DNA of 64,000 nt from Alphaproteobacteria bacterium. GTDB taxonomy: Bacteria; Pseudomonadota; Alphaproteobacteria; CAAHEQ01; UBA3637. The translations under genes and the position numbers were made by a program. The DNA lies in contig JAFTTR010000002.1 of the NCBI GenBank assembly GCA_017466695.1, positions 70,837-134,836 on the forward strand. Direction: 5' to 3'. A model generated the notes under the pieces. That model was not told the origin of the DNA. It ran no database searches and saw only the letters and a list, made by a program, of their open reading frames with translations. Numbering within the stretch: position 1 is the first letter of the stretch; each line of letters starts with the position of its first letter. Positions 2,303 through 22,951 of the stretch are shown one piece after another.

Positions 2303-3781
2303 TTATTTTTTTCGCATTGTTGGGAAGGCAATAATATCTCTGATTGATAAATTAGATGTTAAAACCATAATTAAACGGTCAATGCCAACCCCTAACCCAC
2401 CAGTTGGTGGCATACCATGTTCCAAAGCTGTAACAAAATCTTCATCCATCATGTCAGCTTCATCATCACCAGCATCACGGGCCTTGACTTGCTCTTCAAA
2501 ACGTTCTCTTTGGTCAATTGGGTTTGTCAATTCTGAATAAGCATTGCACATTTCCCATGTGTTCACAAATGTTTCAAATCTCTCAACAAGGCGAGGATCA
2601 TCACGATGTTCTTTTGTCAATGGAGAGATTGATTTTGGATGATCAATCACGTGTGTTGGTTGGATAAGATGTTGTTCACACTTTTCTTCAAATACGGCAA
2701 CCATACAATGCCCCCAATCTGCATTATCATCCACAGAAACACCTAATTTATCACAAGCAGCTCTTGCTTCTTCATCTGATTGAATAGCCAAGAAATCAAC
2801 TCCTGTATGCTCTTCAACCAAACTGGCCATTGTGCGACGTTGGAAAGGCCCCTTAAGACTAATCTTTTTCCCATCAATTTCAACATCAGTTGTCCCATTG
2901 ACTTTCAATGCAGCTGTTTCAAAAATTTGTTCAACCAATGTCATCATATCCGTATAGTCATTGTATTGACGATAAATTTCCATCATTGTGAATTCTGGGT
3001 TATGGCGCGTATCAATTCCCTCATTTCTGAAGTTACGACCAATTTCAAACACACCTTCCATACCACCAACAATCAGACGCTTTAAATAAAGCTCTGGAGC
3101 CACACGCAAGAACAAATCCATATCTAATGCATTGTGATGGGTAATAAATGGTTTTGCAGTTGCACCCCCTTTAATTACATGAAGCAATGGTGTTTCAACT
3201 TCCAATAACCCTTGATCTAATAATAACGTTCTAATCGCTGTTATAATTTGAGATCTTTTAATCAATGTCTCAGTTGTTTCAGGATTTGTAATCATATCCA
3301 AATAACGTTGACGATATTTTGTATCCGTATCTGTCAAACCATGGAATTTTTCAGGCAAAGGCAATAAGGCTTTTGCAAGCATTGTAATTTTAATTGAACT
3401 AACAGAAAGTTCCCCTCGTTTGGTCCGTTTAACCGTTCCTTCAACACCGATAATATCACCAATATCTAATAAATCCAACATATCCAAGAGTTCTTGTGAA
3501 CTTTCATTCTTGGAGGTATAAATTTGAACCTTGCCTGTTGAATCATAAATATCAATGAACATTCCTGAGTTTCTGATTGCTCTGATACGACCTGCCACTT
3601 TAACAACATCTTCAGTTACAGTGTCATTTGGCAATTCAGCATATTTTTCAGCCAATGATTTTGAGTTTTCAGTTGGTCTATAAATTTGAGGATAAGCATT
3701 AATCCCCTGCTCTTCTAAACGTTTTAACTTCGCCACACGTACTTGACGTTGTTCATGTCCTAAATTTTGACTTTCTGTCAT
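2303..3781 (-). CDS. lysS: Lysyl-tRNA synthetase, class II
   Basis: Class II motifs (FRNEGIDTRHNPEFT; GGLGVGIDRLIMVL); ~490 aa. Start trimmed to MTESQ, which has an AAGGA RBS (the ORF-track start at 3844 is 21 codons upstream). Confidence 0.9.
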   Translation of the reverse strand: MTESQNLGHEQRQVRVAKLKRLEEQGINAYPQIYRPTENSKSLAEKYAELPNDTVTEDVVKVAGRIRAIRNSGMFIDIYDSTGKVQIYTSKNESSQELLDMLDLLDIGDIIGVEGTVKRTKRGELSVSSIKITMLAKALLPLPEKFHGLTDTDTKYRQRYLDMITNPETTETLIKRSQIITAIRTLLLDQGLLEVETPLLHVIKGGATAKPFITHHNALDMDLFLRVAPELYLKRLIVGGMEGVFEIGRNFRNEGIDTRHNPEFTMMEIYRQYNDYTDMMTLVEQIFETAALKVNGTTDVEIDGKKISLKGPFQRRTMASLVEEHTGVDFLAIQSDEEARAACDKLGVSVDDNADWGHCMVAVFEEKCEQHLIQPTHVIDHPKSISPLTKEHRDDPRLVERFETFVNTWEMCNAYSELTNPIDQRERFEEQVKARDAGDDEADMMDEDFVTALEHGMPPTGGLGVGIDRLIMVLTSNLSIRDIIAFPTMRKK

Positions 3782-3889
3782 ATGAATCCTTCTTTCTTTG
3801 AATTTATCTTCAAACCTTGCATAATTTATCTTTTTTTTGTGCACAAGTCAATGAATTTTATTGACTTTAAGCAAGAAAAATGATACAAA

Positions 3890-4906
3890 TTGAAAAACAA
3901 TCAATTATCAAAGTGTTATCAAATGAATACACCAACTTGTCCTTATGCTTCAAAATGTGGTGGCTGTTTATATTTAAACATGCCGTTTGAAGAATACATA
4001 CAAAAGAAAAAGAATTTTATTATCAATTCGTTTTCTCATGCAGGCATTCAAATTCAGTTAGCTGATTTTATCATCATTCCTTTTGGGAAAAGACGCAGAG
4101 CCACATTTGCTTTTAAAAAAGGCATAGTTGGTTTCAACGAAAACAAAAGTCATCAAATTATCTCTATGGATAAATGCCCTAGCCTAACTGAAAATTTATC
4201 TTCACTCCTACCAAAATTAAAAGAACTCACTTTTTTGATTGGGAAGAAGGGGGATATTTCTCTTTTAGAAACACCTCAAGGTGTGGATATTCATATTAAA
4301 ACTGGCAAAGAGCAACCTTCTCTTGATTTAAGAATGGAGTTAGCCACGTTTGCAAGTGATGAAAAAATTATACGTTTAAGTTATAATTTTGAACCTATCT
4401 TGCAAAAAATACCTTTATCTCTTCCCATTGATGCTTTTTTACAACCTTCTTTTGAAGGAGAGCAAACCCTTGTAAATTTAGTTTTATCCAACTTAAAAGA
4501 TGAAAAAAAAGTTGCAGACCTTTTTTGTGGAGCCGGCACATTCACAACGCCTTTAATCAAGTCTGGTTTTGATGCTACGGGTTTTGACCTCGCAAAGGAA
4601 AGCGTAAAACTACTTGGGAGCAAAGGTGTTTTTCGTGATTTGTTTCGCAATCCACTCACAACACAAGAACTGAATGAATTTGATTGTGTCGTTATGGACC
4701 CTGCTAGAGCTGGCGCAAAAGAACAATCAAAAGAACTAGCAAAAAGCCAAGTTCAAAAAGTTATTATGATTTCTTGCAACCCTATTACAGCAGCAAGAGA
4801 CAGCCTCATTTTGCTTGAAGGGGGATTTAAATTAACAAAAACCATTGGTGTTGATCAATTTATTTACACCAATCATTGTGAAGTTTTTTGTCTTTTCGAA
4901 AGATAA
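3890..4906 (+). CDS. SAM-dependent RNA (uracil-5)-methyltransferase, RumA/TrmA family (RlmC-like, no TRAM domain)
   Basis: N-terminal 4-Cys cluster CPYASKCGGC; SAM motif DLFCGAGTFT; DPARAG; nucleophile motif MISCNP. Confidence 0.7.
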   Translation: MKNNQLSKCYQMNTPTCPYASKCGGCLYLNMPFEEYIQKKKNFIINSFSHAGIQIQLADFIIIPFGKRRRATFAFKKGIVGFNENKSHQIISMDKCPSLTENLSSLLPKLKELTFLIGKKGDISLLETPQGVDIHIKTGKEQPSLDLRMELATFASDEKIIRLSYNFEPILQKIPLSLPIDAFLQPSFEGEQTLVNLVLSNLKDEKKVADLFCGAGTFTTPLIKSGFDATGFDLAKESVKLLGSKGVFRDLFRNPLTTQELNEFDCVVMDPARAGAKEQSKELAKSQVQKVIMISCNPITAARDSLILLEGGFKLTKTIGVDQFIYTNHCEVFCLFER

Positions 4907-5549: not shown

Positions 5550-6767
5550 CTATTGAAATCTTAATGCATCAATTGGATCCAATTTCATAGCTTTTATTGC
5601 CGGCATTAAACCAGATACAACACCCACAACCACAGCAACTGTTACAGAAATAACAACAGACCAAAGAGATATTGGAACCTGTTTTTCAAAAACAACTCCG
5701 GCTACTTGTGATCCCAGCACACCAACCACCATACCAACAAAACTCCCCATAAATGAAATCATCACAGATTCGGTTAAAAATTGAAGCATAATCCATTTAT
5801 TTGAAGCCCCCAAAGCCTTCCTTGTGCCAATTTCTCTTGTTCTCTCCGTTACAGAAACAAGCATCATATTCATAATCCCAATACTACCCACCAGCAAAGA
5901 AATTGAGGCAATCGACGCTAACAAAACAGACAAAGCAAAACCAACACTCCTAACTTTTTCAACCATATCTGTCATTAGCCTAACTGAAAAGTCATTAGCA
6001 ACCCCATCTTTTAAGTGATGTCTTGCTCTCAGTTGATATTCAATTCGATTAGCAACAGCCTCCATTTTATCTTCACTCACAGTTTTAACAAACGCTACAT
6101 TCGTATATTGTGGCCGAAACCCAGAGTGAATCCGTTGACGAAAAGTCGTTGCAGGCATCATCACAATATTATCTTGGTCATCCCCCATAAGGCCATCCCC
6201 TTTTTCTTTAAGCGTTCCAATAACAGTAAAAGGGCGACTTTTTAAACGAATAACCTTACCAATAGGATCTTGCAGACCGAACAATTCCTCAACAATTGTT
6301 TGTCCAATAACAACATAAGGACGCCCTGTTTTTAAATCTTTTTCACTAAACATAGAACCTTTATCAATTTCCCAATTACCAATTTCAAGATATTCAGGGG
6401 TAGTACCTGCCACACTCACCCCATAGTTGTTGGAACCATAAACAGCTTGTACAGCAAAGTTAACCAGATACGAAGCTGTCTTCACATCTTTTAAATTTTT
6501 TAAAGACTCAACATCATCAAAACTTACACTGGGCCTACCTCTACCACCTCGAACGCCTCCACTAACTGTTTCCCCAGGACCAATAATAATTAAATTTGTA
6601 CCCATAGAGTCAAATGTTTTTGTAATTTCATTTTGCACCGTTTGACCTGCTGCCACCATCATCACAACAGCTGCCACCCCAATTAAAATCCCCAGCATTG
6701 TCAAAAAAGTACGTAATTTGTAGGCACTAATTGAAATCCAAGACTCTTTTAATATCTGGTAAATCAT
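5550..6767 (-). CDS. ABC efflux permease, FtsX/MacB family (periplasmic core domain plus 4 TM)
   Basis: N-terminal TM, large periplasmic domain, C-terminal FtsX-like TM bundle; operon context with ABC ATPase, HlyD and TolC. Confidence 0.8.
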   Translation of the reverse strand: MIYQILKESWISISAYKLRTFLTMLGILIGVAAVVMMVAAGQTVQNEITKTFDSMGTNLIIIGPGETVSGGVRGGRGRPSVSFDDVESLKNLKDVKTASYLVNFAVQAVYGSNNYGVSVAGTTPEYLEIGNWEIDKGSMFSEKDLKTGRPYVVIGQTIVEELFGLQDPIGKVIRLKSRPFTVIGTLKEKGDGLMGDDQDNIVMMPATTFRQRIHSGFRPQYTNVAFVKTVSEDKMEAVANRIEYQLRARHHLKDGVANDFSVRLMTDMVEKVRSVGFALSVLLASIASISLLVGSIGIMNMMLVSVTERTREIGTRKALGASNKWIMLQFLTESVMISFMGSFVGMVVGVLGSQVAGVVFEKQVPISLWSVVISVTVAVVVGVVSGLMPAIKAMKLDPIDALRFQ

Positions 6768-7492
6768 TGTCCCTCCTTATTCAAATAGGCTGAACGAAGA
6801 CCATCATATTCTTTTCGCCCATCGTGAATTTTAATCATACGGTGCGCATAATCTGCCACATCATCCTCATGTGTTACCAAAACAATTGTAATACCTGCCT
6901 GATTGAGTTTTGAAAAAAGCGCCATAATTTCATCAGAAGTTTTGGTATCTAAATTCCCAGTTGGCTCATCTGCAAAAATAATAGCAGGATTGTTCACCAA
7001 AGCTCTTGCAATGGCAACACGTTGTTGCATACCCCCTGAAATTTGAGTTGGAAGTCTATCTTCATACCCTTTCAACCCCACAATTTTAAGCATTTCGACA
7101 GCTCTTTTATACCTTTCCTTTTCACCAACACCCTGATAAATCAAGGGTAAAGAAACATTATCAGCTATTGTTCGTTTCATCAAAAGGTTAAAGTTTTGAA
7201 ATACAAACCCTATTTCATGCCCTCTGATAAAAGCAAGCTCATTGTCCGTTTTTTGAGAAACAAGCTTCCCTGTTAAATAATACGCCCCTTTTGTGGGTCG
7301 ATCCAAACAACCCAAAATATTCATCAAAGTTGACTTACCAGAGCCAGAATGACCCATAATAGCTACAAACTCCCCTTTTTCAATTTTAAAAGAAACATTC
7401 TTGAGAACGGACTGGCTCATTCCACCAGCCATAAAATATGTCTTACATAAATCTTTCACCTCAATAACGGTTTCTTTTTGTTGTTTTGCCAT
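6764..7492 (-). CDS. ABC transporter ATP-binding protein (MacB/LolD-like ATPase)
   Basis: Walker [10 protein letters not shown]; signature [15 protein letters not shown]; Walker [13 protein letters not shown]. Confidence 0.9.
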
Positions 7493-8604
7493 TATTTTCG
7501 CCCACCTTTTTGAATGTATTCTGTAATGAATTGGTCGCCTTCTTTAAGTCCATCAACAACTTCAACATAAGAGGCATCCATAATTCCACGAGTAAAGACA
7601 AGAGGCACCACTTTGCCATCAATCAGTTGGTAGATAACCCCTTGATTAGCCTCTAAATCAAGTGTCACTTTGGGAACATATTTTCTAACCAATGCATTGG
7701 GTTTATATTGCAAAGCAGCCGTAGGAATACGAAGAACGCCTTCTTTATCATGAATAACAATTTGAACAAAAGCTGTCATCCCTGGCAATAACTTACGTGA
7801 AGAATTATCCACCTCAATCACAACCGTATACATCACAACATTTGACTCTTCGGTTGGGGATAATCTAATTTGTTTAACAACCCCGGAAAAAGCATCATTT
7901 GGGTAAGCATCCACCGTGAAAGAAGCTTTCATCCCAGATTGAATTGCTCCAATATCTGCTTCAGCAATACTCGCTTCAATTTGCATTTTGGACAAATCCT
8001 CAGCAATGGTAAATAACGTTGGTGTTTGAAGAGAGGCTGCTACTGTTTGACCTTGTTCCACTTCTTTGGAAATCACCGTTCCTGAAACAGGCGAAGTAAT
8101 TTTAGCATAGCCAAAATTACGTTCAGCCTTATTAAAATCAGCCGTTGCTGTTAAAACATCAGCTTCAGCTATGGCTAAATTAACCTCTGCTTCTTCCAAA
8201 GAGGCTTTGGCAATCAATTTATCTTTATAAAGTTTTTCATATCTTTTAAAGTTTAAATCAGCCACCTTCTTTTTCGCATAAGCTAAATCTAATCTAGCTT
8301 TGGCATCATTTTTATTCTCCGTTAAAACAGCCGTATCCAGCTCAGCTAAAAGTTGCCCTTCTTTGACTTCATCATTATAATCAACCAATACTCTTTCAAC
8401 AATTCCAGAAACTTGCGTTCCCACACTGACCGTATTAACTGGTTGAATTTTACCTGATGCCGTTACCTCTTCAACAATTCGACCCTTTTCAACTTTCATA
8501 ATTTCAAAATCTTGCTTTGTAAGGGCTTTTTCTTTTCCCCCTGAAAAAGCATATATCCCACCCCCAATTAATAGCACAATAATTAAAACGACCCACTTTT
8601 TCAT
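7492..8604 (-). CDS. Periplasmic adaptor (membrane fusion protein), HlyD/MacA family
   Basis: N-terminal anchor, coiled-coil segment, beta-barrel/lipoyl-like regions; overlaps neighbouring genes by 1 nt (operon). Confidence 0.8.
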   Translation of the reverse strand: MKKWVVLIIVLLIGGGIYAFSGGKEKALTKQDFEIMKVEKGRIVEEVTASGKIQPVNTVSVGTQVSGIVERVLVDYNDEVKEGQLLAELDTAVLTENKNDAKARLDLAYAKKKVADLNFKRYEKLYKDKLIAKASLEEAEVNLAIAEADVLTATADFNKAERNFGYAKITSPVSGTVISKEVEQGQTVAASLQTPTLFTIAEDLSKMQIEASIAEADIGAIQSGMKASFTVDAYPNDAFSGVVKQIRLSPTEESNVVMYTVVIEVDNSSRKLLPGMTAFVQIVIHDKEGVLRIPTAALQYKPNALVRKYVPKVTLDLEANQGVIYQLIDGKVVPLVFTRGIMDASYVEVVDGLKEGDQFITEYIQKGGRK

Positions 8605-9947
8605 TAAAACCTCCCTATGGCACGATACAAACTTGCCTTACTTGTTAACACGGCATAATAAGCTACAATAACTTCCTTTCTCGCATTAGATAGCTGTGAA
8701 CCGGCTGTCAATAAATTCAAAATATCCCCTTTACCAACTTGATATGAAGCAAAAGCCACTCGTTCATTTTCAACAGCACTTTCCAGCGCTTTTTTGCTAA
8801 TTTCATAAGAAGAAACAGCCGTTTTATAATTGTGATAAGAAGTCCAAACCTCATTTTTAACCATTTCAATCATTTCTTCTTTTTGTAAAAGAGCTTTTTC
8901 CTTTTGCGCCTCAGCCTCTTTCACATTATATGTTACTGAAAAGCCAGAAAAAAGAGGAACAGAAACATTCAACCCAATACTTGAGGAATAATCAAAATTA
9001 TTCCTTTCTTTAAAATCATCCCCATAACCGGAAGATGCTGTTAAAGAAATGGTTGGCATATGCATTGATTTCAAGGCTTTTACATTTTCAGTAGCTGCTA
9101 AAATATCTTTGTCAGCTTTTTGAATTTCAGGTCTGAGCCCTATCGCTGTTTCAATCATTTTATCAACACTCATCCCTTGCATGGAAAGTTTTGTCAAATC
9201 CCTATCATTTTTAGGTTTTAATAGGTTAAAATCAGTCGTTGGGGAAACATTTAATAAAACAGCTAATTTACCTTGATTTGTTTTAACCTGATTTTCAGCT
9301 TGAACAACATCTAATCTTGATTCTTCATAACTTGTTTTAGCAAGCAATTTATCACTTAAAGAAACAAGACCTAACTCATAACGTCTTGAAGATTCCTCAT
9401 ACGATTTTTTAAAACTTGCTTCACTTGTTTTGGCGCTTTTTAAAACCTCTTGGGCACTGAGTAAATCAAAATAAGCCTTATTAATTTCTAAAAAAGTATC
9501 TTTGATTTGAGCATTGTATTCAAACCCTGAAGATAACATATAATTTTCAGCCCTCTTCACACGAGCAGAACGGCCCCCAAAATCATAGAGCATCCACGAA
9601 AGAGCCGCATTCAAACGATAAGGATTAGCGGCATTCGAATTAAAATCTTCCACCTTATTATATGTATCTTCCATTGCACCTTTTAAAGTAACACTTGGCA
9701 AATACTCTGCTTTAGAGGCACCCAAAGAAGCCTCTTTTGCCTTCACTTCCATATACCCTCTATTTAAAGTCGGATTATTACAAAGCCCAATTTCTAACAA
9801 TTCAGGCAATCCCATAGGGCCTTTTAAAATATCTTTATCCACACAATTTTCTGGTGCTTTTTGTTCAAAAACATGAAAGGGATCCATGGCCTGCGCCACC
9901 CCTGAAAAACAAATTATACCCATACCTAATAAGAAAATTTTGCGCAT
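8604..9947 (-). CDS. Outer membrane efflux protein, TolC family
   Basis: Signal peptide MRKIFLLGMGIICFSGVAQA; two repeated OEP-like halves; first gene of the operon. Confidence 0.8.
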   Translation of the reverse strand: MRKIFLLGMGIICFSGVAQAMDPFHVFEQKAPENCVDKDILKGPMGLPELLEIGLCNNPTLNRGYMEVKAKEASLGASKAEYLPSVTLKGAMEDTYNKVEDFNSNAANPYRLNAALSWMLYDFGGRSARVKRAENYMLSSGFEYNAQIKDTFLEINKAYFDLLSAQEVLKSAKTSEASFKKSYEESSRRYELGLVSLSDKLLAKTSYEESRLDVVQAENQVKTNQGKLAVLLNVSPTTDFNLLKPKNDRDLTKLSMQGMSVDKMIETAIGLRPEIQKADKDILAATENVKALKSMHMPTISLTASSGYGDDFKERNNFDYSSSIGLNVSVPLFSGFSVTYNVKEAEAQKEKALLQKEEMIEMVKNEVWTSYHNYKTAVSSYEISKKALESAVENERVAFASYQVGKGDILNLLTAGSQLSNARKEVIVAYYAVLTSKASLYRAIGRF

Positions 9948-15710: not shown

Positions 15711-18599
15711 ATGCAACAAGTTAACGTGTCGCATCTAAGAGAAGTTGACTTAGAAAATGATAAGACAAAAAGCATTTGTCTTGTTGATGGCTCTGGATAC
15801 ATTTTTAGAGCATTCTATGCCCTACCCCTTATGACACGAGAAGACGGTACACCAGTAAATGCTGTTTACGGTTTTATGAATATGTTGATGAACCTAGTAA
15901 GCGAAAATGGGTGTTCTCATATTTTGGTTGTTTTTGATGCTAAGCGTAAAAATTATCGAAATGATATTTATAAAGCTTATAAAGAAAATAGAAAAGAAAC
16001 CCCACCAGAACTTGTACCTCAGTTTCCCCTTATTCGAGAAGCTAGTGACGTTTTAAACATTCCATGGATTGAAATGGAAGGGTTTGAAGCTGATGACTTA
16101 ATTGCGTCCTATGCAAAAATTGCAACTGAAAAAGGATGGCATACCACAGTTGTTTCTGCCGATAAAGACTTGATGCAATTAATGAATGATCATGTTTCTC
16201 TTTATGATCCAATGAAAAAAAAGATCATCACAAATGAAGATGTCATTAACAAATTTGGTGTTTTGCCAGACAAAGTAACAGATGTTCAATCATTAATGGG
16301 CGATAGTACCGATAATATTCCAGGAGCCACTGGCATTGGTCCCAAAACAGCGGCCAGTTTAATCAATGAATTCGGCTCACTTGATACATTACTGAATAAT
16401 TTATCCCAAGTAAAAAATGAAAAAAGGCGCGCAATTTTAGAAAGAGATAAAGAGCAAATTCTCATTTCTCAAAAACTTGTCACTTTGTGTGACACAGCAC
16501 CTGTGAACGAGGATTTATCTTTGTATAGAGCTAAAGCACCCGATATTGAAAAGATGAAGCAATTTTTGGTTCAAAATCGCTTTAAAAGTTTGTTAGCAAA
16601 AGTTTCTTCTTGGTCAGATGACAGAGTTAAAAATATTCATCTTTTAAATGAAAGCCCTTCCATTTCTTCAAGCGAAAACCTTGTTAAAGATAAGGTTGAA
16701 TCTATTCCAGTACAGCCCATTGAAAAGAAAGCTATTCTATTTTCTCCCAGAAAATATGAGCTTATTCAAGAAGTAAAAGATCTCGAGCGTTGGATTGAAA
16801 AATTAAAAACCGCCTCTGAGTTCGCCATTGATACGGAAACCACCTCTTTAAATATTTTGGAGGCAAAGCTGGTGGGTATTTCTCTTGCTGTTGATGATAA
16901 AGCTTGTTATATTCCTGTGCGCCATGGTGGGGAGGAAGAGGAAAATACGGTTGATTTATTCTCTTTTACCTCAGTTGAAAAAAAAGAAAGAGAAAAACAA
17001 ATTCCTTTAAAAGTTGTTTTAAAAGAACTCCTCCCTTTGTTAAAAGATAAAAACATTAAAAAGATTGGGCATAATTTAAAATATGACCTTCACATTTTGG
17101 CAAAAGAAATTGGACCAGCGTTTGATATTATCTCTTATGAAGACACAATGGTTTTGAGTTATGTTTTAAATGGTGTTACCCATGGACATGGAATGGACGA
17201 GCTGTCCACGCTTTATTTAAACCATACAACAATTAAATATGAAGAGGTTTGTGGTTCGGGAAAAGAAAAAATAACCTTTGATCAAGTACCACTTGAAAAA
17301 GCTTTACTCTATGCAGCTGAAGATGCAGATATTACCTTGGAATTGTATCACCATTTCAAAGAAAAGCTCACAGATGAAAGTCTTAAAAACATCTATTATC
17401 ATATTGACTTACCTTTGGTTAAAATCTTATTTAGGATGGAAGAAAAAGGCATTCAAATTGACACCTTGCAGTTAAATAATTTGAAGCATTATTTCACACA
17501 AGAACTTGCCAACTTAACTCAAAAAATTTATGACCTTGCTGGTGAAGAATTCAACATCAATTCACCTATGCAACTGGGGCAAATCTTGTTTGAAAAAATG
17601 GGTCTTCCTGGTGGAAAGAAAGGCACAAAAGGTGGATTTAGTACAGATGTCAAAGTGTTAGAGGCTTTGGCTAGCGAAGGACATGAGATTGCAAAAACAG
17701 CTTTAGAATATCGCTCATTTGCTAAGCTTAAAAGCACATATGTAGATGCTTTACTCACTTTAACAGATAAAGAAAATCGAGTTCACACTTCTTATATGCA
17801 AACTGTAACAAGCACTGGACGCCTTTCTTCAACAGACCCTAATTTGCAAAATATCCCCATTAAAACAGAGGCAGGAAAAGAAATTAGAAAAGCCTTTGTT
17901 GCCAAAAAGGGATATAAGATTATGGCCGCCGACTATTCTCAAATTGAATTAAGATTAATGGCTGACGTTGCTAATATTAAAAATTTAAAAACTTCTTTTA
18001 TGAATAATGAAGATATTCACGCAAGAACAGCCTCTCAAATTTTCAATGTACCACTAGAAGAAGTCTCAAAAGATTTAAGACGTAACGCTAAAGCGATTAA
18101 CTTTGGGATTATTTATGGAATGAGCGCCTTCGGCCTTTCGGCTCAATTAGGTATTTCAAGACAAGAGGCTAGTAATTATATCAATGCTTATTTCAAAGAA
18201 TATCCTGAAATTAAAACGTATATGGAAGAAACCACTCAATTTGCAACCACAAATGGGTACGTCCTCACACCAATGGGACGCAGATGTTACATCCGAGGGA
18301 TTATGGACCCTAAAATGCGTGGGATTGCTTCACGAGCAGCCATCAATGCTCCCATCCAAGGTGGTGCTGCAGATATCATCAAAATTGCCATGCAAAAAGT
18401 AGTTGACCGATTGGCAAAAGAAGATGTGGATGCTTCTTTATTACTCCAAGTTCATGATGAATTGGTGTTAGAAGTCAAAGAGAGTGATACCCAAAAAGTT
18501 GCTGAACTTTTAAAAGAAACAATGGAAAATGCTGTTACTCTTTCTGTGCCACTTATTGTTGAAGTTGACACAGCCGATAATTGGAAAGATGCTCATTAA
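15711..18599 (+). CDS. polA: DNA polymerase I
   Basis: 5'-3' exo N-terminus (LVDGSGYIFRAFYA), 3'-5' exo and pol domains (RRNAKAINFGIIYG; QVHDELVLE). Start taken at MQQVN, with a GGGGAG RBS (the ORF-track start is 5 codons upstream). Confidence 0.92.
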   Translation: MQQVNVSHLREVDLENDKTKSICLVDGSGYIFRAFYALPLMTREDGTPVNAVYGFMNMLMNLVSENGCSHILVVFDAKRKNYRNDIYKAYKENRKETPPELVPQFPLIREASDVLNIPWIEMEGFEADDLIASYAKIATEKGWHTTVVSADKDLMQLMNDHVSLYDPMKKKIITNEDVINKFGVLPDKVTDVQSLMGDSTDNIPGATGIGPKTAASLINEFGSLDTLLNNLSQVKNEKRRAILERDKEQILISQKLVTLCDTAPVNEDLSLYRAKAPDIEKMKQFLVQNRFKSLLAKVSSWSDDRVKNIHLLNESPSISSSENLVKDKVESIPVQPIEKKAILFSPRKYELIQEVKDLERWIEKLKTASEFAIDTETTSLNILEAKLVGISLAVDDKACYIPVRHGGEEEENTVDLFSFTSVEKKEREKQIPLKVVLKELLPLLKDKNIKKIGHNLKYDLHILAKEIGPAFDIISYEDTMVLSYVLNGVTHGHGMDELSTLYLNHTTIKYEEVCGSGKEKITFDQVPLEKALLYAAEDADITLELYHHFKEKLTDESLKNIYYHIDLPLVKILFRMEEKGIQIDTLQLNNLKHYFTQELANLTQKIYDLAGEEFNINSPMQLGQILFEKMGLPGGKKGTKGGFSTDVKVLEALASEGHEIAKTALEYRSFAKLKSTYVDALLTLTDKENRVHTSYMQTVTSTGRLSSTDPNLQNIPIKTEAGKEIRKAFVAKKGYKIMAADYSQIELRLMADVANIKNLKTSFMNNEDIHARTASQIFNVPLEEVSKDLRRNAKAINFGIIYGMSAFGLSAQLGISRQEASNYINAYFKEYPEIKTYMEETTQFATTNGYVLTPMGRRCYIRGIMDPKMRGIASRAAINAPIQGGAADIIKIAMQKVVDRLAKEDVDASLLLQVHDELVLEVKESDTQKVAELLKETMENAVTLSVPLIVEVDTADNWKDAH

Positions 18600-18742
18600 C
18601 AAATAAAAACTCTTTATTCTCTTTTTTTTACTATAAAGAGAAAGATAATGGCTAACCAGCTGGTTTCTGATTACAAAAAAAAGCAACATAATTTCAATGT
18701 TGCTTTTTTATGATAATGCTAAAAGTATGAGCAAATTGTTAT

Positions 18743-19444
18743 TTAATAATCATCATTTGGAACAATTGCTTTTTTGGCCTTTTTAAGTGCCCGTTTTGGA
18801 CGGCGAGCCATAATATCAGGCACGGCATCTGTGATAATATCATGAACATCTTTTAAATTTTTGGAATAAACGTGATCCCCTTCAGGCACAACACGATATT
18901 CGACATGTAAATATCTGTGATTTGAAAGCTGTTCAGCCAACATGGCAACAGATGGTTCAGAAATCAAACTATCCTTTGCCCCTTGAATAATCAACCCTGA
19001 GGATGGACATGGAGTTAAGAAATCAAATTGATAGGCATTCGTTGGAGGAGAAACAAAAACAAAACCCTTAATTTCTGGTCTGCGCATCAATAATTGCGCA
19101 GCAATCCACGCCCCAAAAGAATACCCTGCAATCCAACAAACATTTGATTCAGAATCAATATTTTGCAACCAGTCTAATGCAATAATTGCATCAGCAAGTT
19201 CACCAACCCCTGTTCCATCAACGACACCTTGAGAATTTCCAACACCACGATAATTAAAACGAAGAACGGAAAAACCCATGTTCACAAAGGCTTGAAACAT
19301 CGCATATGTCACTCGATTGTTCATTGTTCCCCCTTGAGATGGGTGTGGGTGTAAAACTAAAACAAGTGGTGCTCTTGGATTTTCAGATTTATGAAAACGA
19401 CCTTCTAATCTTCCTGCTGCACCATTAAAAAATACTTCTGCCAT
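18743..19444 (-). CDS. Alpha/beta-fold hydrolase (esterase/thioesterase-like)
   Basis: GxSxG nucleophile motif GYSFGAW; ~230 aa; HPHP...GG oxyanion-region motif. Confidence 0.65.
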   Translation of the reverse strand: MAEVFFNGAAGRLEGRFHKSENPRAPLVLVLHPHPSQGGTMNNRVTYAMFQAFVNMGFSVLRFNYRGVGNSQGVVDGTGVGELADAIIALDWLQNIDSESNVCWIAGYSFGAWIAAQLLMRRPEIKGFVFVSPPTNAYQFDFLTPCPSSGLIIQGAKDSLISEPSVAMLAEQLSNHRYLHVEYRVVPEGDHVYSKNLKDVHDIITDAVPDIMARRPKRALKKAKKAIVPNDDY

Positions 19445-19592
19445 AAGAAACCCCCAATTGGATGTGTTAATATTCGTTTATTTTTGAATATATTATAACA
19501 AATTTTAATAAAAAGCAATATTTTTTCATTTTTTTTAATATTTTTTATTGACATTTATATTTTTTGAGGCTATAAGTATTTTATCAACGATG

Positions 19593-19667
19593 GCGGAATA
19601 GCTCAGATGGTAGAGCGGTGGAATCATAATCCATGTGTCGGGGGTTCGATCCCCTCTTCCGCTACCA
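19593..19667 (+). tRNA. tRNA-Met (anticodon CAU; elongator-type; could alternatively be tRNA-Ile2/lysidine)
   Basis: GGCGGAAUAGCUCAGAUGGUAGAGCGGUGGAAUCAUAAUCCAUGUGUCGGGGGUUCGAUCCCCUCUUCCGCUACCA; anticodon loop AUCAUAA; no initiator signature (no GGG/CCC anticodon stem). Confidence 0.88.
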
Positions 19668-19670
19668 GTT

Positions 19671-19704
19671 AAAAGACCTTGTAGAAATGCAAGGTCTTTT
19701 TTTT
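19671..19704 (+). terminator. Rho-independent terminator after tRNA-Met
   Basis: aagaccttg-tagaaatg-caaggtctt hairpin followed by tttttttt. Confidence 0.75.
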
Positions 19705-19715
19705 ATGCATATGAG

Positions 19716-20114
19716 AATAACCATAGAGGTAGAGGGTGGCATCATAATTCCAAGTGCCCAAGGGTTCTAACCCCTCTTGTGCTACCAGTTAGAAAGGGCC
19801 TCGTAGAAATACGAGGTCTTTTTTTTGCTTTTATCCCGTATCAAAGGACAAAATAGCTATAGAGGTAGAGCGGTGGAATCTCAATTCCACCATCTTTTCA
19901 ACTTCGGCTCACCGCCTTGTTTCAAAGTGGTTCATTGCTTTACGCAGAAAAACAGTTCCCCAAACTGTTTTTCTTTACGCAGTCAAGTGCCCAAGGATTC
20001 TAACCCCTCTTGTGCTACCAGTTAGAAAGGGCCTTGTAGAAATACGAGGTCTTTTTTTTATATGTAAGAGAACACCTATAGAGATAGAGGGTAAAATCAT
20101 AATTCCATGTTGAT
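19716..20114 (+). repeat. Array of degenerate or partial tRNA-Met copies with associated hairpin terminators. Components: a near-full-length pseudo-tRNA at 19724-19787 plus terminator at 19792-19827; a 5' fragment at 19858-19890; a ~90-bp insert at 19891-19981; a 3' fragment at 19982-20020 plus terminator at 20025-20059; a 5' fragment at 20077-20114.
   Basis: Direct reading: atagaggtagag(c/g)g(g)tgg(c/a)atc(a/t)(t/c)aattcca... and ...agtgcccaag(g/a)(g/a)ttctaacccctcttgtgctaccagttagaaagggcc(t/c)(c/t)gtagaaatacgaggtcttttttt recur with mutations. The D-arm and T-arm are disrupted, so these are non-functional copies. Confidence 0.8.
19724..19787 (+). pseudogene. tRNA-Met pseudogene (degenerate copy; CAU anticodon loop retained, D- and T-arms mutated)
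   Basis: atagaggtagagggtggcatcataattccaagtgcccaagggttctaacccctcttgtgctacca compared with the intact tRNA at 19593-19667. Confidence 0.7.
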
Positions 20115-20131
20115 AAAGTGAATTTTTCTTA

Positions 20132-21001
20132 CTATCTTTCTAATTTTAAATGATAATAAGGAGAATTTTTAAGCAAAGGACGAATATGCGTGTTGAATAG
20201 CACTTTTTCTTCCACAGATAAAAACAAAATTTCACTTTCCTTTGCCTCGTCATTATTTTTAATCACTCCATTGCCTTTTAATGTTTTCATAAAATGAAAC
20301 CAAACAGGCTGCGAATGGATATTATTTTTCATTTTTTTATTAAAAACAACATATTCAAAATATTTTTTTTGTTGAAAATGAGAGAAATTTTTTCTTTGAA
20401 TAGCGTAACTATCCCCATTCTCACCGTTAAATGGTCCTAATTTATATTTCACAAGAACACCATTATGTGAAAATGTGTTGTATCCCTTTAAAGAAAAATG
20501 CTTATTATCATTTTCCGCTTTTTTCATCATCTCGACAAATTCTTTTAACCTATTTGTTAAATAAACCTGATCAGCATCAATTTTCACAACCCATTCGTTT
20601 GGTTTAAAAAATTGCAATCCAAATTGATTATACGCTGCTAATGTATTCTCATAAGGAACAGATCCTTTATATCTCTTATCATGAGAAGGAATAACAGCAT
20701 GAGGATATTCATGAATTTCACAACTGGGCCTTTTTTCACACCACGCATTCATAAAAGCAACAGAGCCATCATCTTTTTCATTTGAATGAATAATAACAAT
20801 CCTATCAAAAACGCCGTCAATTGAATTTAAACAGGCCTCAATGGTGTTTATTTCATTCTTAACACGTAAATAGGCTGATGCAGGAAATGCTTCTGTTCCC
20901 TGCGCATTTATAGAGTTAAAAAATATATAAATTACAACAAATAATAACAACTTCTTAAAGTTTTGCTTTAACACAAAATACCCCCACACTTTTTTAGACA
21001 A
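20132..21001 (-). CDS. Putative glycosyltransferase (GT-A-like, DxD motif) with N-terminal membrane anchor/signal
   Basis: Hydrophobic N-terminus LLLFVVIYIFFNSINAQG; beta-strand-like RIVIIHSNEKDDGS followed by VVKIDADQVY (DxD). Very AT-rich; lies directly next to the tRNA-Met pseudo-copy array. Confidence 0.45.
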   Translation of the reverse strand: MSKKVWGYFVLKQNFKKLLLFVVIYIFFNSINAQGTEAFPASAYLRVKNEINTIEACLNSIDGVFDRIVIIHSNEKDDGSVAFMNAWCEKRPSCEIHEYPHAVIPSHDKRYKGSVPYENTLAAYNQFGLQFFKPNEWVVKIDADQVYLTNRLKEFVEMMKKAENDNKHFSLKGYNTFSHNGVLVKYKLGPFNGENGDSYAIQRKNFSHFQQKKYFEYVVFNKKMKNNIHSQPVWFHFMKTLKGNGVIKNNDEAKESEILFLSVEEKVLFNTHIRPLLKNSPYYHLKLER

Positions 21002-21021
21002 AACGTTTTGTCCACCTTATT

Positions 21022-21714
21022 TTATGCCGTATATAACCCCTCTTTAATCAACCCCTCTTCGACACGAATTTGCTTATCCATCTGCAATGCTAAATCAGGG
21101 TTATGTGTTGCAATCAATGCCGATAATTTTGTTTCTTTCACTAAATTTAAAAGCGTTTGAAACACACCACTTGCCGTACTAGGGTCCAAATTTCCAGTTG
21201 GCTCATCTGCTAATAAAATAGCTGGGTTGTTTGCCAATGCTCTTGCAATGGCAACACGTTGTTGCTCACCCCCTGAAAGTTGCCCTGAGCGATGTTTTAA
21301 TCGGTGTTTTAATCCCACTAACTCCAGCAATTCTTCAGCTCTTTTTCTAGCAAGTTTTGGCTTTTTCCCTTCAATTAGTTGGGGAAGCATCACATTTTCA
21401 AGCGCATTAAAATCTGGCAATAACAAATGGGATTGATAAACAAAACCAATGGCCTTTCGTCTCAAAAGAGTGCGTTCTTTATCTAAGGCATGAGATACAT
21501 CAACGCCATTTACAAAAATTTCACCACCCGTAGGCGTATCCAACAGCCCTGCAATATGAAGGAGTGTTGATTTTCCAGAACCAGAAGGACCAACAAGAGC
21601 CACAATTTCCCCTTTTTGAAGTGTAAAGTTAATATCTTTTAAAACCTCAAGTTTCGTTTCTTTATCGCCATAAAAACGGCTCACATGTTTTAATTCTAAA
21701 CAAGGATTATTCAT
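21022..21714 (-). CDS. lolD: Lipoprotein-releasing system ATP-binding protein
   Basis: [18 protein letters not shown]; [32 protein letters not shown]; paired and overlapping with the LolC/E permease gene. Confidence 0.85.
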
Positions 21715-22951
21715 ATCTTAATGCCTCCACAGGGTCAGTTTTGCTTGCTTTATAAGAAGGATAAAGTGTTGCAAGTAAGGATAAAGCTAAACTCATCACA
21801 ACAACAAGTGTCACTTCTGTCATATCCACTTTTGCTGGTAGGTGGGAAAGGAAATAAATTTCAGCCGAAAAAAGCTCTCTTCCTGATAATCCTTCTAAAA
21901 ACGTTTTTATCGCATCAATATTTTCACAAAACAACAAACCAAGAGCAAAACCTGCGAATGTTCCAACAACACCAACGGTTAATCCAGACATTAAGAAAAT
22001 CCGTTGAATAGCACCACGGCTCATCCCCATTGTACGTAAAACTGCAATATCTTTTGTCTTATCTTGCACAAGCATAATCAGCCCTGAAATCATATTAAAA
22101 GCAGCCACAATAATAATGAGCGTTAAAATTAAAAACATAACATTTCGCTCAACTTCAATGGCATTAAAAAAGGCTTGATTTGTATATCTCCAATCATGGA
22201 TTGTAGCATCTCTTCCAATTTTTGAAAATGCATTTTCTGCAATTTTTTCATAATCGGCGCCTTTGTTTGTAAATACTTCAAGATGAGAAACTTTATCCCC
22301 TGTCATGAAGAATTTTTTCGCCTCGTCAAGGGGCATGAAAAGAAAATTGCCGTCATATTCACTCATACCACTATCAAAAGTTCCTAAAACCGTATATGCC
22401 TTCATTTTAGGAATTGTGCCAAATGCTGTTATATTTCCTTTAGGTGAAACCAATGATACTTGATCTCCAGCTCTTACCCCTAACCTTCTGGCCAAACGAT
22501 AACCTAAAATAATTTGGCTATCTAAAAACTCATTGATATCTATGCCTTTATATTTTCCACCTAATAAAGGCCTTTTTTTAAAATCCTCAAGACTCATCCC
22601 TCTAACCATAACCCCAGCTGAGGCCATATCAGAGGAAAGCATAACCTGCCCATCCACCACAGGTACAACATGGGTAATATCTTTAATGGATTGCATTGTT
22701 TTAGCCTTTTCTTCGCCATCAGACAAATATGGACCATAAGAGGGATAAACTCCTAATTGCCCATTAATACCAAGAACACGACTTAAAAGCTCTTCTTTAA
22801 ACCCATTCATCACACTCATTACAATAATAAGCGTTGCAACACCTAACATAATCCCTAAAAATGAAAACCCTGCAATAACAGAGACAAAGCCGGTTCTTTT
22901 TCTAGACTTTAAGTAGCGAAAAGATAACATTCTTTCTGTTTTTGAAAACAT
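21707..22951 (-). CDS. lolC: Lipoprotein-releasing system permease LolC/LolE (FtsX family)
   Basis: 414 aa; N-terminal TM, periplasmic domain, C-terminal FtsX TM bundle; upstream of lolD with an 8-nt overlap. Confidence 0.8.
   Translation of the reverse strand: MFSKTERMLSFRYLKSRKRTGFVSVIAGFSFLGIMLGVATLIIVMSVMNGFKEELLSRVLGINGQLGVYPSYGPYLSDGEEKAKTMQSIKDITHVVPVVDGQVMLSSDMASAGVMVRGMSLEDFKKRPLLGGKYKGIDINEFLDSQIILGYRLARRLGVRAGDQVSLVSPKGNITAFGTIPKMKAYTVLGTFDSGMSEYDGNFLFMPLDEAKKFFMTGDKVSHLEVFTNKGADYEKIAENAFSKIGRDATIHDWRYTNQAFFNAIEVERNVMFLILTLIIIVAAFNMISGLIMLVQDKTKDIAVLRTMGMSRGAIQRIFLMSGLTVGVVGTFAGFALGLLFCENIDAIKTFLEGLSGRELFSAEIYFLSHLPAKVDMTEVTLVVVMSLALSLLATLYPSYKASKTDPVEALRYE

What the first reader, a model, noticed from the sequence alone, without database searches (positions are those of the whole stretch)
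19560..20131. tRNA-Met followed by an array of pseudo-tRNA-Met copies, each with its own terminator: serial integration scars or a tRNA-derived repeat family
Downstream of an intact tRNA-Met (CAU) plus terminator there is a near-full-length degenerate copy that keeps the CAU loop but has lost the D-arm and T-arm, followed by a second hairpin terminator (cctcgta-gaaa-tacgagg). Then comes a 5' fragment, a ~90-bp insert, the matching 3' fragment with a third terminator, and another 5' fragment. The split copy looks like a pseudo-tRNA interrupted by a small insertion (19891-19981) carrying a hairpin (aaaaacagtt...aactgttttt) flanked by a ctttacgcag direct repeat. Repeated partial tRNA copies at the 3' side of a tRNA are what successive integrase-mediated insertions and excisions leave behind. 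The adjacent gene (20132-21001) is an AT-rich glycosyltransferase-like orphan, consistent with island cargo.
Basis: seen in the sequence. Interest (0 to 1): 0.65.

Follow-up and report, generated by a model that had tools for sequence, protein, structure and literature searches.

The report
Unstable array of decayed tRNA-Met copies
Behind a working tRNA-Met gene of an uncultured gut alphaproteobacterium lies a short array of dead copies of that whole gene, terminators included; the array arose by tandem duplication and is reshuffled by recombination, so it is not a set of phage or island integration scars, and it borders an unusually variable sugar-transferase gene.

Summary
An intact tRNA-Met(CAU) at 19592-19667, with its terminator, is followed by three tRNA-Met-derived pseudo-copies. 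P1 is near full length. P2 is split by a 96-nt insert. P3t is a 5' fragment that abuts a glycosyltransferase (GT) gene. P1 and P2 each carry a terminator of their own.

The copies align specifically to tRNA-Met. They are not tRNAs by ARAGORN, by Rfam or by folding, and the cloverleaf shows no covariation.

The integrase-scar reading is not supported:
- Units repeat head to tail every 120-230 nt with no cargo between them.
- They include 5' halves, and in relatives also the leader and -10 region.
- No ORF of 150 aa or more in the 64-kb window matches an integrase, IS or phage family.
- No viral contig carries the tRNA 3' end.

The array sits at this one locus in every lineage of one clade, those whose hydrolase is at least 88% identical, except L003. 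Outgroups have a single tRNA-Met. Architecture differs within species, with hybrid units, 2 to 6 units and more diverged edge units. This fits tandem duplication, unequal crossing-over and gene conversion.

The flanking GT is always present (truncated in L001) but hypervariable: 78-100% within the species, against 98-100% for its neighbours.

One point is unexplained. A ~110-nt module (hairpin plus insert) is identical across species whose synonymous sites are saturated. Recent exchange is the likelier cause, but selection is not excluded.

The parts
19548..19576 (+). Promoter of the real tRNA-Met gene: TTGACA (19548-19553), 17-nt spacer, TATAAG (19571-19576)
   Evidence: Read directly from the sequence. 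The region is conserved in all clade members. The consensus scan missed it because it requires T at position 6 of the -10 hexamer.
19592..19667 (+). Intact tRNA-Met(CAU), here called R. It is not of initiator type.
   Evidence: ARAGORN. Rfam tRNA model, 63.1 bits. It folds as a cloverleaf. It is 76/76 identical in every clade member that has it and in many outgroups.
19671..19708 (+). Intrinsic terminator of R. An A-run precedes the stem and a T-run follows it, so it looks bidirectional.
   Evidence: Terminator scan.
19713..19787 (+). P1: near-full-length pseudo-tRNA-Met. It keeps the CAT, but the acceptor stem is broken and the T-loop has changed.
   Evidence: It is not called as a tRNA and does not fold as a cloverleaf.
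19791..19827 (+). Terminator of P1 (cctcgta-gaaa-tacgagg core)
19828..19850 (+). Spacer, a remnant of the tRNA leader. It is near-identical to the corresponding spacer in the L002 species.
   Evidence: exact match 19814-19852 with L002, L071 and L073.
19851..19889 (+). P2a: 5' half of a pseudo-tRNA. Its anticodon arm has been remodelled into a perfect 8-bp hairpin, GGTGGAAT-CTCA-ATTCCACC (19872-19891), followed by ATCTTTT.
19890..19985 (+). 96-nt insert that splits P2. It contains a 25-nt palindrome (19948-19972) flanked by the 10-nt direct repeat CTTTACGCAG.
   Evidence: Empty-site and filled-site copies lie side by side in L093. The insert is 93/93 identical in L001 and L093, 71/71 in L076, and 57/57 between the two L001 copies. 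The 35-nt hairpin-plus-repeat is absent from L001 copy 2 and from L064.
19986..20020 (+). P2b: 3' half of the split pseudo-tRNA
20024..20061 (+). Terminator of P2b
20066..20110 (+). P3t: terminal 5' fragment of a pseudo-tRNA. It is truncated near tRNA position 46-50, about 20 nt from the GT stop codon.
   Evidence: A similar terminal truncated 5' fragment is seen in L002, L004, L007, L008, L055/L057 and L071-74.
20132..21001 (-). CgtA-like glycosyltransferase gene, convergent with the array. It is AT-rich and hypervariable.
   Evidence: Pfam CgtA, E = 8.9e-13. GC 30.0%. Identity of 100%, 86% and 78% within the species and 48-74% between species.

Best explanation
The locus is a clade-specific, recombinationally unstable tandem array of decayed duplicates of the entire tRNA-Met transcription unit. 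In close relatives a unit comprises leader/-10 remnant, tRNA body and intrinsic terminator. In the window it comprises body and terminator.

Proposed history:
- An ancestor of this gut alphaproteobacterial clade duplicated the unit head to tail downstream of the functional gene.
- The extra copies lost tRNA function through a broken acceptor stem, an altered D-loop or T-loop, and in some copies an anticodon loop collapsed into a hairpin.
- One copy acquired a 96-nt insertion at the variable-loop position.
- Since then the array has been expanded, contracted and homogenised by unequal homologous crossing-over and gene conversion between units, together with small deletions. Segments have also been exchanged between related species along with alleles of the adjacent hypervariable GT gene.

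What is shown: the anatomy, the loss of tRNA character, the restriction to one clade and one locus, the within-species structural polymorphism including a hybrid crossover unit, the absence of integration machinery, and the mosaic identity between species.

What is inferred: the order of events, the view that the copies are functionless apart from supplying extra bidirectional terminators between the convergent tRNA and GT-lolDCE transcription units, and recent horizontal exchange as the reason for the identical insert module.
For: Unit structure:
- The real tRNA (R) and P1 repeat with a 120-nt period at 81% identity.
- In L004-L008 and L046, units of about 150-180 nt also copy the leader and -10 region, and the -10 is degraded from TATAAA to TCTAAA or TTTAAA.
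- Terminators are homogenised within each genome, while body features specific to the pseudo-copies are shared across genomes.

Not tRNAs:
- No tRNA call at Rfam E<=10 or with ARAGORN at 70% of its thresholds.
- No cloverleaf fold.
- Cloverleaf pairing is 78.8% against 77.9% in shuffles. Acceptor pairs 4-69 and 5-68 are broken in 9-10 of 15 sequences.

Distribution:
- Arrays are found where the flanking hydrolase is at least 88% identical. Of the sampled clade lineages only L003 lacks one. Relatives at 84% or less have a single tRNA-Met and different downstream genes.
- The pattern scan of the metagenome collection found only the orthologous locus.

Dynamics:
- Contigs that encode the identical hydrolase protein have intergenic regions of 688, 552 and 333 nt.
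- L052 carries a P1/P2 hybrid unit, exactly as expected from a crossover within ATAGAGGTAGAG. L055 and L057 keep only R and P3t.
- Other species show one to five pseudo-copies, mini-units with internal deletions, and an array of about 1 kb.
- Edge units are the most diverged.
- All four combinations of two variable insert segments occur.

No integration machinery: every ORF of 150 aa or more in the 64 kb either matches a housekeeping or other non-mobile family or matches nothing.

Precedent: the E. coli tyrT/tyrV locus has 178-bp tRNA-linked tandem repeats.
Against: - Synonymous (4-fold) sites between the window and L001 are only 39-57% identical, which is saturated. Yet the pseudo-copies remain 83-85% identical, and a ~110-nt module (19875-19985) is 100% identical. 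Purely neutral vertical decay cannot explain this. It requires gene conversion from the invariant real tRNA together with recent exchange between species, or else selection.
- The array persists in every sampled clade lineage except L003, although deletion variants are common. That could indicate a benefit.
- Part of the copy-number variation comes from short-read metagenome assemblies. L084, L085 and L092 contain N gaps inside the array, so exact copy numbers are uncertain.
- No expression data were available.
Confidence: 0.74

Rival explanations
1. Serial integrase-mediated integration and excision scars. Successive phages or islands integrated into the 3' end of tRNA-Met and left partial tRNA copies behind. 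The GT gene is leftover cargo.
For: [quoted passage not shown]
- The tRNA-Met 3' flank is a synteny breakpoint between this clade and its outgroups.
- The GT gene is AT-rich and variable.
Against: - The copies include 5' halves, leader and terminator. There are terminal 5' fragments, whereas an element targeting the 3' end would leave displaced 3' fragments.
- Units are 120-230 nt apart with no cargo between them.
- No ORF of 150 aa or more in the 64 kb matches an integrase, IS or phage family.
- No viral contig contains the last 20 or 28 nt of the tRNA.
- The GT gene is present in every clade member whose contig reaches that far.
- The pseudo-copies share derived changes that are absent from the invariant real tRNA. 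They therefore descend from one another and not from repeated att duplications.
Confidence: 0.03
2. The array, or at least the ~110-nt module made of the remodelled anticodon hairpin and the 96-nt insert, is a functional element kept by selection. It could be a tRNA-derived small RNA with its own terminator, a stack of bidirectional terminators that insulates the convergent tRNA and GT-lolDCE units, or a recombination signal.
For: - The module is 93/93 to 111/111 identical across species whose 4-fold sites are saturated. The longest exact inter-species match elsewhere in 18000-22951, outside the tRNA, is 50 nt.
- The module folds stably (z = -5.3).
- The array persists in all sampled clade lineages but L003.
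- A functional pseudo-tRNA has a precedent, B. cereus tRNA-Other (PMC3399842, abstract). RtT RNAs are released from tRNA operon transcripts (PMC4986893).
Against: - No promoter-like site precedes the pseudo-copies in the window.
- Diverged module copies break the predicted hairpin pairs without compensation (read directly).
- The 66-aa ORF across the module is destroyed by a 1-nt deletion in L001 and by the 35-nt indel.
- Identity extends beyond the module in a pair-specific way. Between the window and L076 it runs from 19817 to at least 19961, through leader and P2a. Between the window and L001 it covers only 19875-19985. That pattern fits recent exchange better than uniform constraint.
- Strains of the same species lack the module entirely: L055/L057, and L071-L075 in the L002 species.
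- There is no Rfam match.
Confidence: 0.13
3. The pseudo-copies are by-products of repeated replacement of the GT cassette by recombination. Incoming DNA from related strains is anchored in the perfectly conserved tRNA or in lolD and joined illegitimately on the tRNA side, stacking partial tRNA units. These would be serial acquisition scars made without an integrase.
For: - GT alleles turn over within species (100%, 86% and 78% identity, against 98-100% for PolA, the hydrolase, LolD and LolCE), and array architecture changes with the GT allele.
- GT allele types and terminal fragments are shared across species. L072 has a window-type terminal fragment and a GT 74% identical to the window's, against 60% for its conspecific L071.
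- Identity across species is mosaic.
- Breakpoints recur near tRNA position 46-54.
Against: - Every real tRNA copy in the clade is identical, yet the pseudo-copies share derived states. New units are therefore not freshly copied from a donor's real tRNA.
- Simple unequal crossing-over already explains the hybrid unit of L052.
- Illegitimate joints cannot be told apart from old deletions with the present data.
Confidence: 0.25

Closest known systems
E. coli tyrT/tyrV tRNA-linked 178-bp tandem repeats (rttR / rtT RNA, tpr)
   Same: Both are head-to-tail repeats that start immediately downstream of a tRNA gene, and each unit contains tRNA-derived sequence. I verified this in K-12: copies spaced 178 nt apart and 95% identical, with the repeat overlapping the last 19 nt of tyrV. 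In E. coli an RNA is released from the operon transcript (PMC4986893).
   Different: In E. coli only about 19 nt of the tRNA 3' end are repeated, and the units lie inside the operon transcript and encode RttR and Tpr. Here each unit is a near-complete tRNA body with its own terminator. There is no sequence or Rfam similarity to RtT. Expression is unknown.
tRNA gene fragments left by integrative elements (att scars; Islander-type islands)
   Same: Partial tRNA copies lie in direct orientation downstream of an intact tRNA gene (PMC9897764).
   Different: Defining features are missing: there is no integrase and no island between the repeats. The fragments include 5' halves and leaders, and the units are tandem at 120-230 nt.
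Tandem-repeat arrays evolving by unequal crossing-over and gene conversion (concerted evolution); tandem duplication with random loss of tRNA genes in organelle genomes; tandem duplication of tRNA genes in P. fluorescens SBW25
   Same: Shared features are copy-number polymorphism, hybrid units, homogenised internal units and diverged edge units. Tandem duplication is a documented route of tRNA gene copy change in bacteria (PMC7661048 and PMC10954465, abstracts).
   Different: The SBW25 duplications are large-scale and yield functional extra tRNA genes. Here the unit is about 0.12-0.23 kb and the extra copies are pseudogenes retained across species.
Functional pseudo-tRNA, B. cereus tRNA-Other
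   Same: A tRNA-like gene next to a variable region that does not function in translation (PMC3399842, abstract).
   Different: tRNA-Other is a single gene with a demonstrated phenotype. Here there is an array of variable, structurally broken copies with no evidence of expression or function.

Membership tests
Integrase att-site scars at a tRNA gene | A tyrosine or serine integrase gene next to the tRNA or a repeat | tested here: not met
   Pfam scans of all 47 ORFs of 150 aa or more in the 64-kb window gave only housekeeping or other non-mobile families, or no match. There was no integrase, transposase or phage family.
Integrase att-site scars at a tRNA gene | One complete and one partial tRNA copy (the part carried by attP, usually the 3' part) bounding a kb-scale element | tested here: not met
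   The copies include 5' halves, leader and terminator, and lie 120-230 nt apart with no genes between them. The defining feature is taken from PMC9897764.
Integrase att-site scars at a tRNA gene | An element, phage or island that carries the matching attP | tested here: not met
   Exact scans of IMG/VR for the last 28 nt and the last 20 nt of the tRNA, and for the insert core, gave 0 hits. The test is limited to exact matches in one collection.
Tandem duplication array evolving by unequal crossing-over | Head-to-tail units in one orientation with a regular period, copying flanking non-genic sequence as well | tested here: met
   TRF reports period 120. Units in relatives copy the leader/-10 region and the terminator.
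Tandem duplication array evolving by unequal crossing-over | Copy-number and architecture polymorphism among close relatives, with hybrid units at crossover points | tested here: met
   Within the window's species, L050 and L051 match the window, L052 has a P1/P2 hybrid, and L055 and L057 have two units. Other species show one to five pseudo-copies. Caveat: some scaffolds have N gaps inside the array.
Tandem duplication array evolving by unequal crossing-over | Concerted evolution: internal units homogenised, edge units more diverged | tested here: met
   Terminators are homogenised within each genome. The terminal units of L064 and L092 are the most degenerate.
Canonical tRNA | Cloverleaf detected by tRNA models, with an intact acceptor stem | tested here: not met
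   Only the real tRNA is detected. The pseudo-copies do not fold as cloverleaves. Acceptor pairs 4-69 and 5-68 are broken in 9-10 of 15 sequences and there is no covariation.
RtT / tRNA-linked repeat RNA (Rfam RtT) | Match to the RtT covariance model | tested here: not met
   No RtT hit at E<=10 in 19400-20300.
RtT / tRNA-linked repeat RNA (Rfam RtT) | Tandem repeats directly downstream of a tRNA gene that contain tRNA-derived sequence | tested here: met
   for the window. for E. coli K-12.
MITE or IS-derived miniature element (for the 96-nt insert) | Terminal inverted repeats, a target-site duplication and multiple dispersed copies | tested here: not met
   No terminal inverted repeats (read directly). 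Only a 2-nt CA ambiguity at the junctions. Copies occur only inside the arrays.
Functional tRNA-like small RNA | Own promoter, a discrete transcript, and structure conserved with covariation | tested here: inconclusive
   No promoter-like site precedes the pseudo-copies, and variant copies show no compensatory changes. However, the module is ultra-conserved between species. Expression cannot be tested with these tools.

The most novel reading that the evidence does not exclude
The ~110-nt module (remodelled anticodon hairpin plus 96-nt insert, window 19875-19985), and perhaps the whole pseudo-tRNA array, is a selected functional element. It could be a tRNA-derived small RNA, a terminator module, or a recombination-promoting landing pad that drives cassette exchange of the adjacent hypervariable surface-glycan GT gene. 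Under this reading its identity across species with saturated synonymous sites reflects purifying selection and not recent transfer.
Probability: 0.12. Interest if true: 0.65.

Novelty: new variant of a known kind. Interest (0 to 1): 0.35.

Why it matters
- It corrects a tempting misreading. Partial tRNA copies beside a tRNA gene are usually taken as integration footprints. Here they come from tandem duplication of the whole gene unit.
- It gives a bacterial example of a small array of non-coding gene units undergoing concerted evolution, polymorphic within species and retained across a clade. It sits exactly at the border of a hypervariable glycosyltransferase gene in uncultured gut Alphaproteobacteria.
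- For annotation, such arrays break short-read assemblies (several contigs end inside them) and can yield spurious tRNA or pseudogene calls.
- If the conserved module proves to be functional, it would be a new tRNA-derived element.

Tried and rejected
- Dispersed repeat family. Pseudo-copy patterns occur nowhere else in the 64-kb window. A degenerate pseudo-copy 3' pattern scanned over the metagenome collection hit only one true locus, the orthologous L046; the other four hits were chance.
- Phage attP. Three exact scans of the viral collection found nothing.
- Weak tRNA. ARAGORN at 90%, 80% and 70% of its thresholds gave only out-of-register junk, and there was no Rfam tRNA hit at E<=10.
- Structure conserved by covariation. 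The cloverleaf count equals the shuffles. The predicted hairpin in the insert is broken, without compensation, in variant copies.
- Small protein. The 66-aa ORF at 19825-20025, whose internal GTG is preceded by GAGG, is not conserved. L001 has a 1-nt deletion with an upstream stop, and the 35-nt indel shifts the frame.
- 'Captured downstream flank'. I first thought the insert was unique flank sequence captured by a duplication junction. I dropped this when the terminal unit of L064 proved to be a degenerate split copy and L093 showed an unsplit empty-site copy next to a filled one.
- Resemblance of the insert to parS, dif or integron attC sites was judged by eye only and dismissed. This is inference, not a test.
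- Bösl & Kersten 1991 could not be read, so I checked the E. coli repeats directly.
Full report
WHAT IS IN THE WINDOW

The window is core chromosome of an uncultured, low-GC (36.4%) alphaproteobacterium. Its genes include gcrA, polA, lolD, lolCE, accD, dnaG, rpoD, mreBC and others. The closest public sequences are Alphaproteobacteria MAGs, several named for ruminant gut samples.

At the locus a promoter (TTGACA, 17 nt, TATAAG, at 19548-19576, read directly) precedes the only detectable tRNA. This is tRNA-Met(CAT) at 19592-19667, scoring 63.1 bits against the Rfam tRNA model. It is followed by a terminator at 19671-19708.

Downstream lie:
- P1 (19713-19787), a near-full-length copy, with its own terminator (19791-19827);
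- a leader-like spacer;
- P2a (19851-19889), a 5' half;
- a 96-nt insert (19890-19985);
- P2b (19986-20020), the matching 3' half, with a third terminator (20024-20061);
- P3t (20066-20110), a 5' fragment that ends about 20 nt from the stop codon of a convergent CgtA-like glycosyltransferase (GT) gene (20132-21001, minus strand).

All of this is confirmed by the repeat finder, TRF (period 120, 81% matches) and the terminator scan (4 found against 0.9 expected). The array is identical in L051, an assembly of another sample, and in L050.

ARE THE COPIES tRNA-Met-DERIVED, AND ARE THEY tRNAs?

They align to tRNA-Met with local scores of 36, 35 and 19. The best shuffle scored 14, and the window's tRNA-Gln and tRNA-Arg scored 5-13.

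They are not tRNAs:
- There is no Rfam tRNA hit even at E<=10.
- ARAGORN finds no in-register call even at 70% of its thresholds, here or in eight related arrays.
- The real tRNA folds as a cloverleaf, and the pseudo-copies do not.
- On an alignment of the real tRNA and 14 pseudo-copies from 8 genomes, the cloverleaf is 78.8% paired against 77.9% in shuffles. Acceptor pairs 4-69 and 5-68 are broken in 9-10 of the 15 sequences, with no compensatory pattern.

COMPARATIVE PICTURE

I used the adjacent alpha/beta hydrolase (18743-19444) as an anchor. It retrieved 44 loci from species-representative genomes and about 45 further contigs by exact-protein look-up.

The tRNA-Met next to the hydrolase is conserved widely and is 76/76 identical in many genomes. 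Pseudo-copies occur where the hydrolase is at least 88% identical. This covers the window's species and those of L001/L064/L092-93, L002/L071-76, L091, L061, L004/L006/L081-90, L005/L046 and L007/L008. Among the clade lineages sampled, only L003 has none. Relatives at 84% or less have a single tRNA-Met followed by different genes. In the clade the order polA (in most) - hydrolase - [tRNA-Met array] - GT - lolD - lolCE is conserved.

In L004-L008 and L046 the unit (about 150-180 nt) also copies the tRNA leader and -10 region, and the -10 is degraded from TATAAA to TCTAAA or TTTAAA. The duplicated entity is therefore the whole transcription unit.

Terminators are nearly identical among units within a genome but differ between genomes. 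Body features specific to the pseudo-copies are shared across genomes and absent from the invariant real tRNA. Examples are GTGCC plus one extra base where the real tRNA has GTGTC, and altered acceptor 3' strands. The pseudo-copies therefore descend from one ancestral pseudo-copy and evolve in concert.

DYNAMICS

Contigs that encode the identical hydrolase protein differ in architecture:
- L050 and L051 are identical to the window (688-nt interval).
- L052 (552 nt) carries one hybrid unit that starts as P1 and continues as P2a. That is the product expected from an unequal crossover within ATAGAGGTAGAG.
- L055 and L057 (333 nt) retain only the real tRNA and P3t.

Other species show one to five pseudo-copies, mini-units in which a 5' fragment is fused directly to a terminator (L075), and an array of about 1 kb in L093.

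A terminal truncated 5' fragment next to the GT gene recurs in most lineages. Terminal units are the most degenerate (L064, L092). This is the classical edge effect of arrays that evolve by unequal crossing-over.

Caveat: several short-read contigs end inside the array, and three scaffolds carry N gaps there. Exact copy numbers need long reads.

THE INSERT

L093 contains, side by side, two units whose leaders and 5' halves differ at only two positions. One reads ...GGAATCTCAATTCCA|AGTGCCCAAGGG... and is unsplit. The other has the 96-nt insert at the marked point. The insert is therefore a discrete indel at the variable-loop position, with a 2-nt CA ambiguity at the junctions. It has no terminal inverted repeats and no copies outside the arrays.

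Inside the insert, the 25-nt palindrome plus one copy of the 10-nt repeat CTTTACGCAG is itself a 35-nt indel. It is absent from L001 copy 2 and from L064.

Every insert-bearing 5' half has the 'CTCA' form of the anticodon arm. This argues for one insertion followed by duplication of the unit, not repeated targeting of the same site.

THE UNEXPLAINED CONSERVATION

Between the window and L001, 4-fold degenerate sites are 39-57% identical, which is essentially saturated. Gene DNA identity is 79-88%. Despite this, the insert is 93/93 identical, and the exact match runs over 111 nt (19875-19985). With L076, from a third species, an exact match of 109 nt runs from 19853 to the contig end. A single mismatch separates it from a further 36 exact nt through the leader and the start of P2a. 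Elsewhere in 18000-22951, apart from the tRNA itself, the longest exact inter-species match is 50 nt.

Several observations point to recent exchange between species plus gene conversion within arrays, more than to uniform purifying selection:
- Identity extends into different flanks for different species pairs.
- All four combinations of two variable insert segments exist.
- Terminal copies differ at about 7-9 of the 57 core positions.
- Some conspecific strains lack the module altogether (L055/L057, L071-75).
- Variant copies break the predicted hairpin without compensation.

Selection on the module is nevertheless not excluded. I carry it forward as the novel reading.

THE NEIGHBOURING GT GENE

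The GT gene is not presence/absence cargo. A homologue sits at the same place in every clade member whose contig reaches that far. It is truncated in L001 and duplicated in L007 and L008. It is, however, the second most AT-rich of the 47 ORFs (30.0% GC) and is hypervariable:
- Within the window's species it is 100%, 86% and 78% identical, while PolA, the hydrolase, LolD and LolCE are 98-100%.
- Between species it is 48-74% identical, while LolCE is 87-95%.
- Allele types are shared across species. L072 has a window-type terminal fragment and a GT 74% identical to the window's, against 60% for its conspecific L071.

The array thus lies at the boundary of a recombination hot spot.

AGAINST THE INTEGRASE READING

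[quoted passage not shown] Here:
- Fragments include 5' halves and leaders.
- Units are 120-230 nt apart with nothing between them.
- No ORF of 150 aa or more in the 64 kb matches an integrase, transposase or phage family.
- No viral contig carries the tRNA 3' end or the insert.

CLOSEST KNOWN

The nearest precedent is the E. coli tyrT/tyrV locus. I verified three 178-bp tandem repeats at 95% identity, each overlapping the last 19 nt of the tRNA and covering rttR and tpr. RtT RNAs are released from such transcripts (PMC4986893). The present array differs in three ways: it repeats almost the whole tRNA body with a private terminator per unit, its units are pseudogenes, and it has no RtT model match.

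Tandem duplication is a documented route of change in bacterial tRNA gene copy number (PMC7661048, PMC10954465; abstracts). Those events are large and yield functional genes.

VERDICT

Its main mechanism, integrase scars, is wrong.

The most likely explanation (about 0.74) is a tandem-duplication-derived array of pseudo-tRNA units kept in flux by unequal crossing-over, gene conversion and exchange between species at the edge of a hypervariable GT gene. Its only probable 'function' is a stack of bidirectional terminators.

Novelty is modest: a new variant of tRNA-linked tandem repeats. Interest is 0.35. It is raised somewhat by the within-species polymorphism and by the unexplained ultra-conserved module.

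Noticed in passing
window 20132-21001 (minus strand); L052, L055, L057, L072 and others: The CgtA-like glycosyltransferase is hypervariable. Within the window's species it is 100%, 86% and 78% identical in amino acids, while PolA, the hydrolase, LolD and LolCE are 98-100%. Between species it is 48-74%. Its GC content is 30.0% against 36.4% for the window. It is duplicated in L007 and L008 and truncated to its N-terminal third in L001. This looks like a surface-glycan diversification hot spot with allele types shared across species.
   Followed up: partly
L003, upstream of the hydrolase match (reverse-complement coordinates about 6780-6840): In this species-representative MAG the tRNA-Met gene, part of its promoter and the whole array are missing. 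The hydrolase is followed almost directly by the GT gene. Either the tRNA-Met at this locus is dispensable there (another copy elsewhere) or the MAG contig is mis-assembled.
   Followed up: no
window 19946-19982; L001, L064, L092/L093: A 35-nt indel inside the insert consists of a perfect 25-nt palindrome (AAAAACAGTT-CCCCA-AACTGTTTTT) and one copy of the 10-nt direct repeat CTTTACGCAG. It is present in some insert copies and absent in others. It could be slippage between the repeats or a tiny insertion with a 10-nt duplication. The origin is unknown.
   Followed up: partly
L061, L063 and L075 versus L081-L090 versus the window (other side of the hydrolase gene): The gene on the far side of the hydrolase also differs between lineages. 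It is polA in the window and most relatives, a HIT/DcpS-like gene in L061, L063 and L075, and an HD-domain gene in L081-L090. The hydrolase-tRNA-Met pair is therefore a small conserved block between two rearrangement-prone flanks.
   Followed up: no
window 57236-61132, 63160-63906, 47501-48181: There is a 1298-aa autotransporter with Chlamydia-PMP-type repeats, an ankyrin-repeat protein and a Sel1-repeat protein. Proteins of these kinds are often linked to host association.
   Followed up: no
window 5550-9947 (minus strand) and 21022-22951 (minus strand): Two MacB/FtsX-type ABC systems are present. One is a MacAB-TolC-like four-gene efflux set (OEP, HlyD, ABC, MacB_PCD/FtsX). The other is lolD-lolCE next to the array.
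   Followed up: no
L084, L085, L092 (N runs); L053, L054, L056, L062, L063, L067, L068, L076 (contig ends): Short-read metagenome assemblies frequently break, or are scaffolded with N gaps, inside the pseudo-tRNA array. Copy numbers taken from such assemblies are lower bounds, and the locus is a systematic assembly breakpoint.
   Followed up: partly
L065/L066, reverse-complement coordinates about 3430-4250: In the nearest outgroup (hydrolase 84% identical) the single tRNA-Met is followed by about 0.8 kb of very AT-rich non-coding DNA before a dinB-like (IMS) gene. I did not examine this stretch.
   Followed up: no
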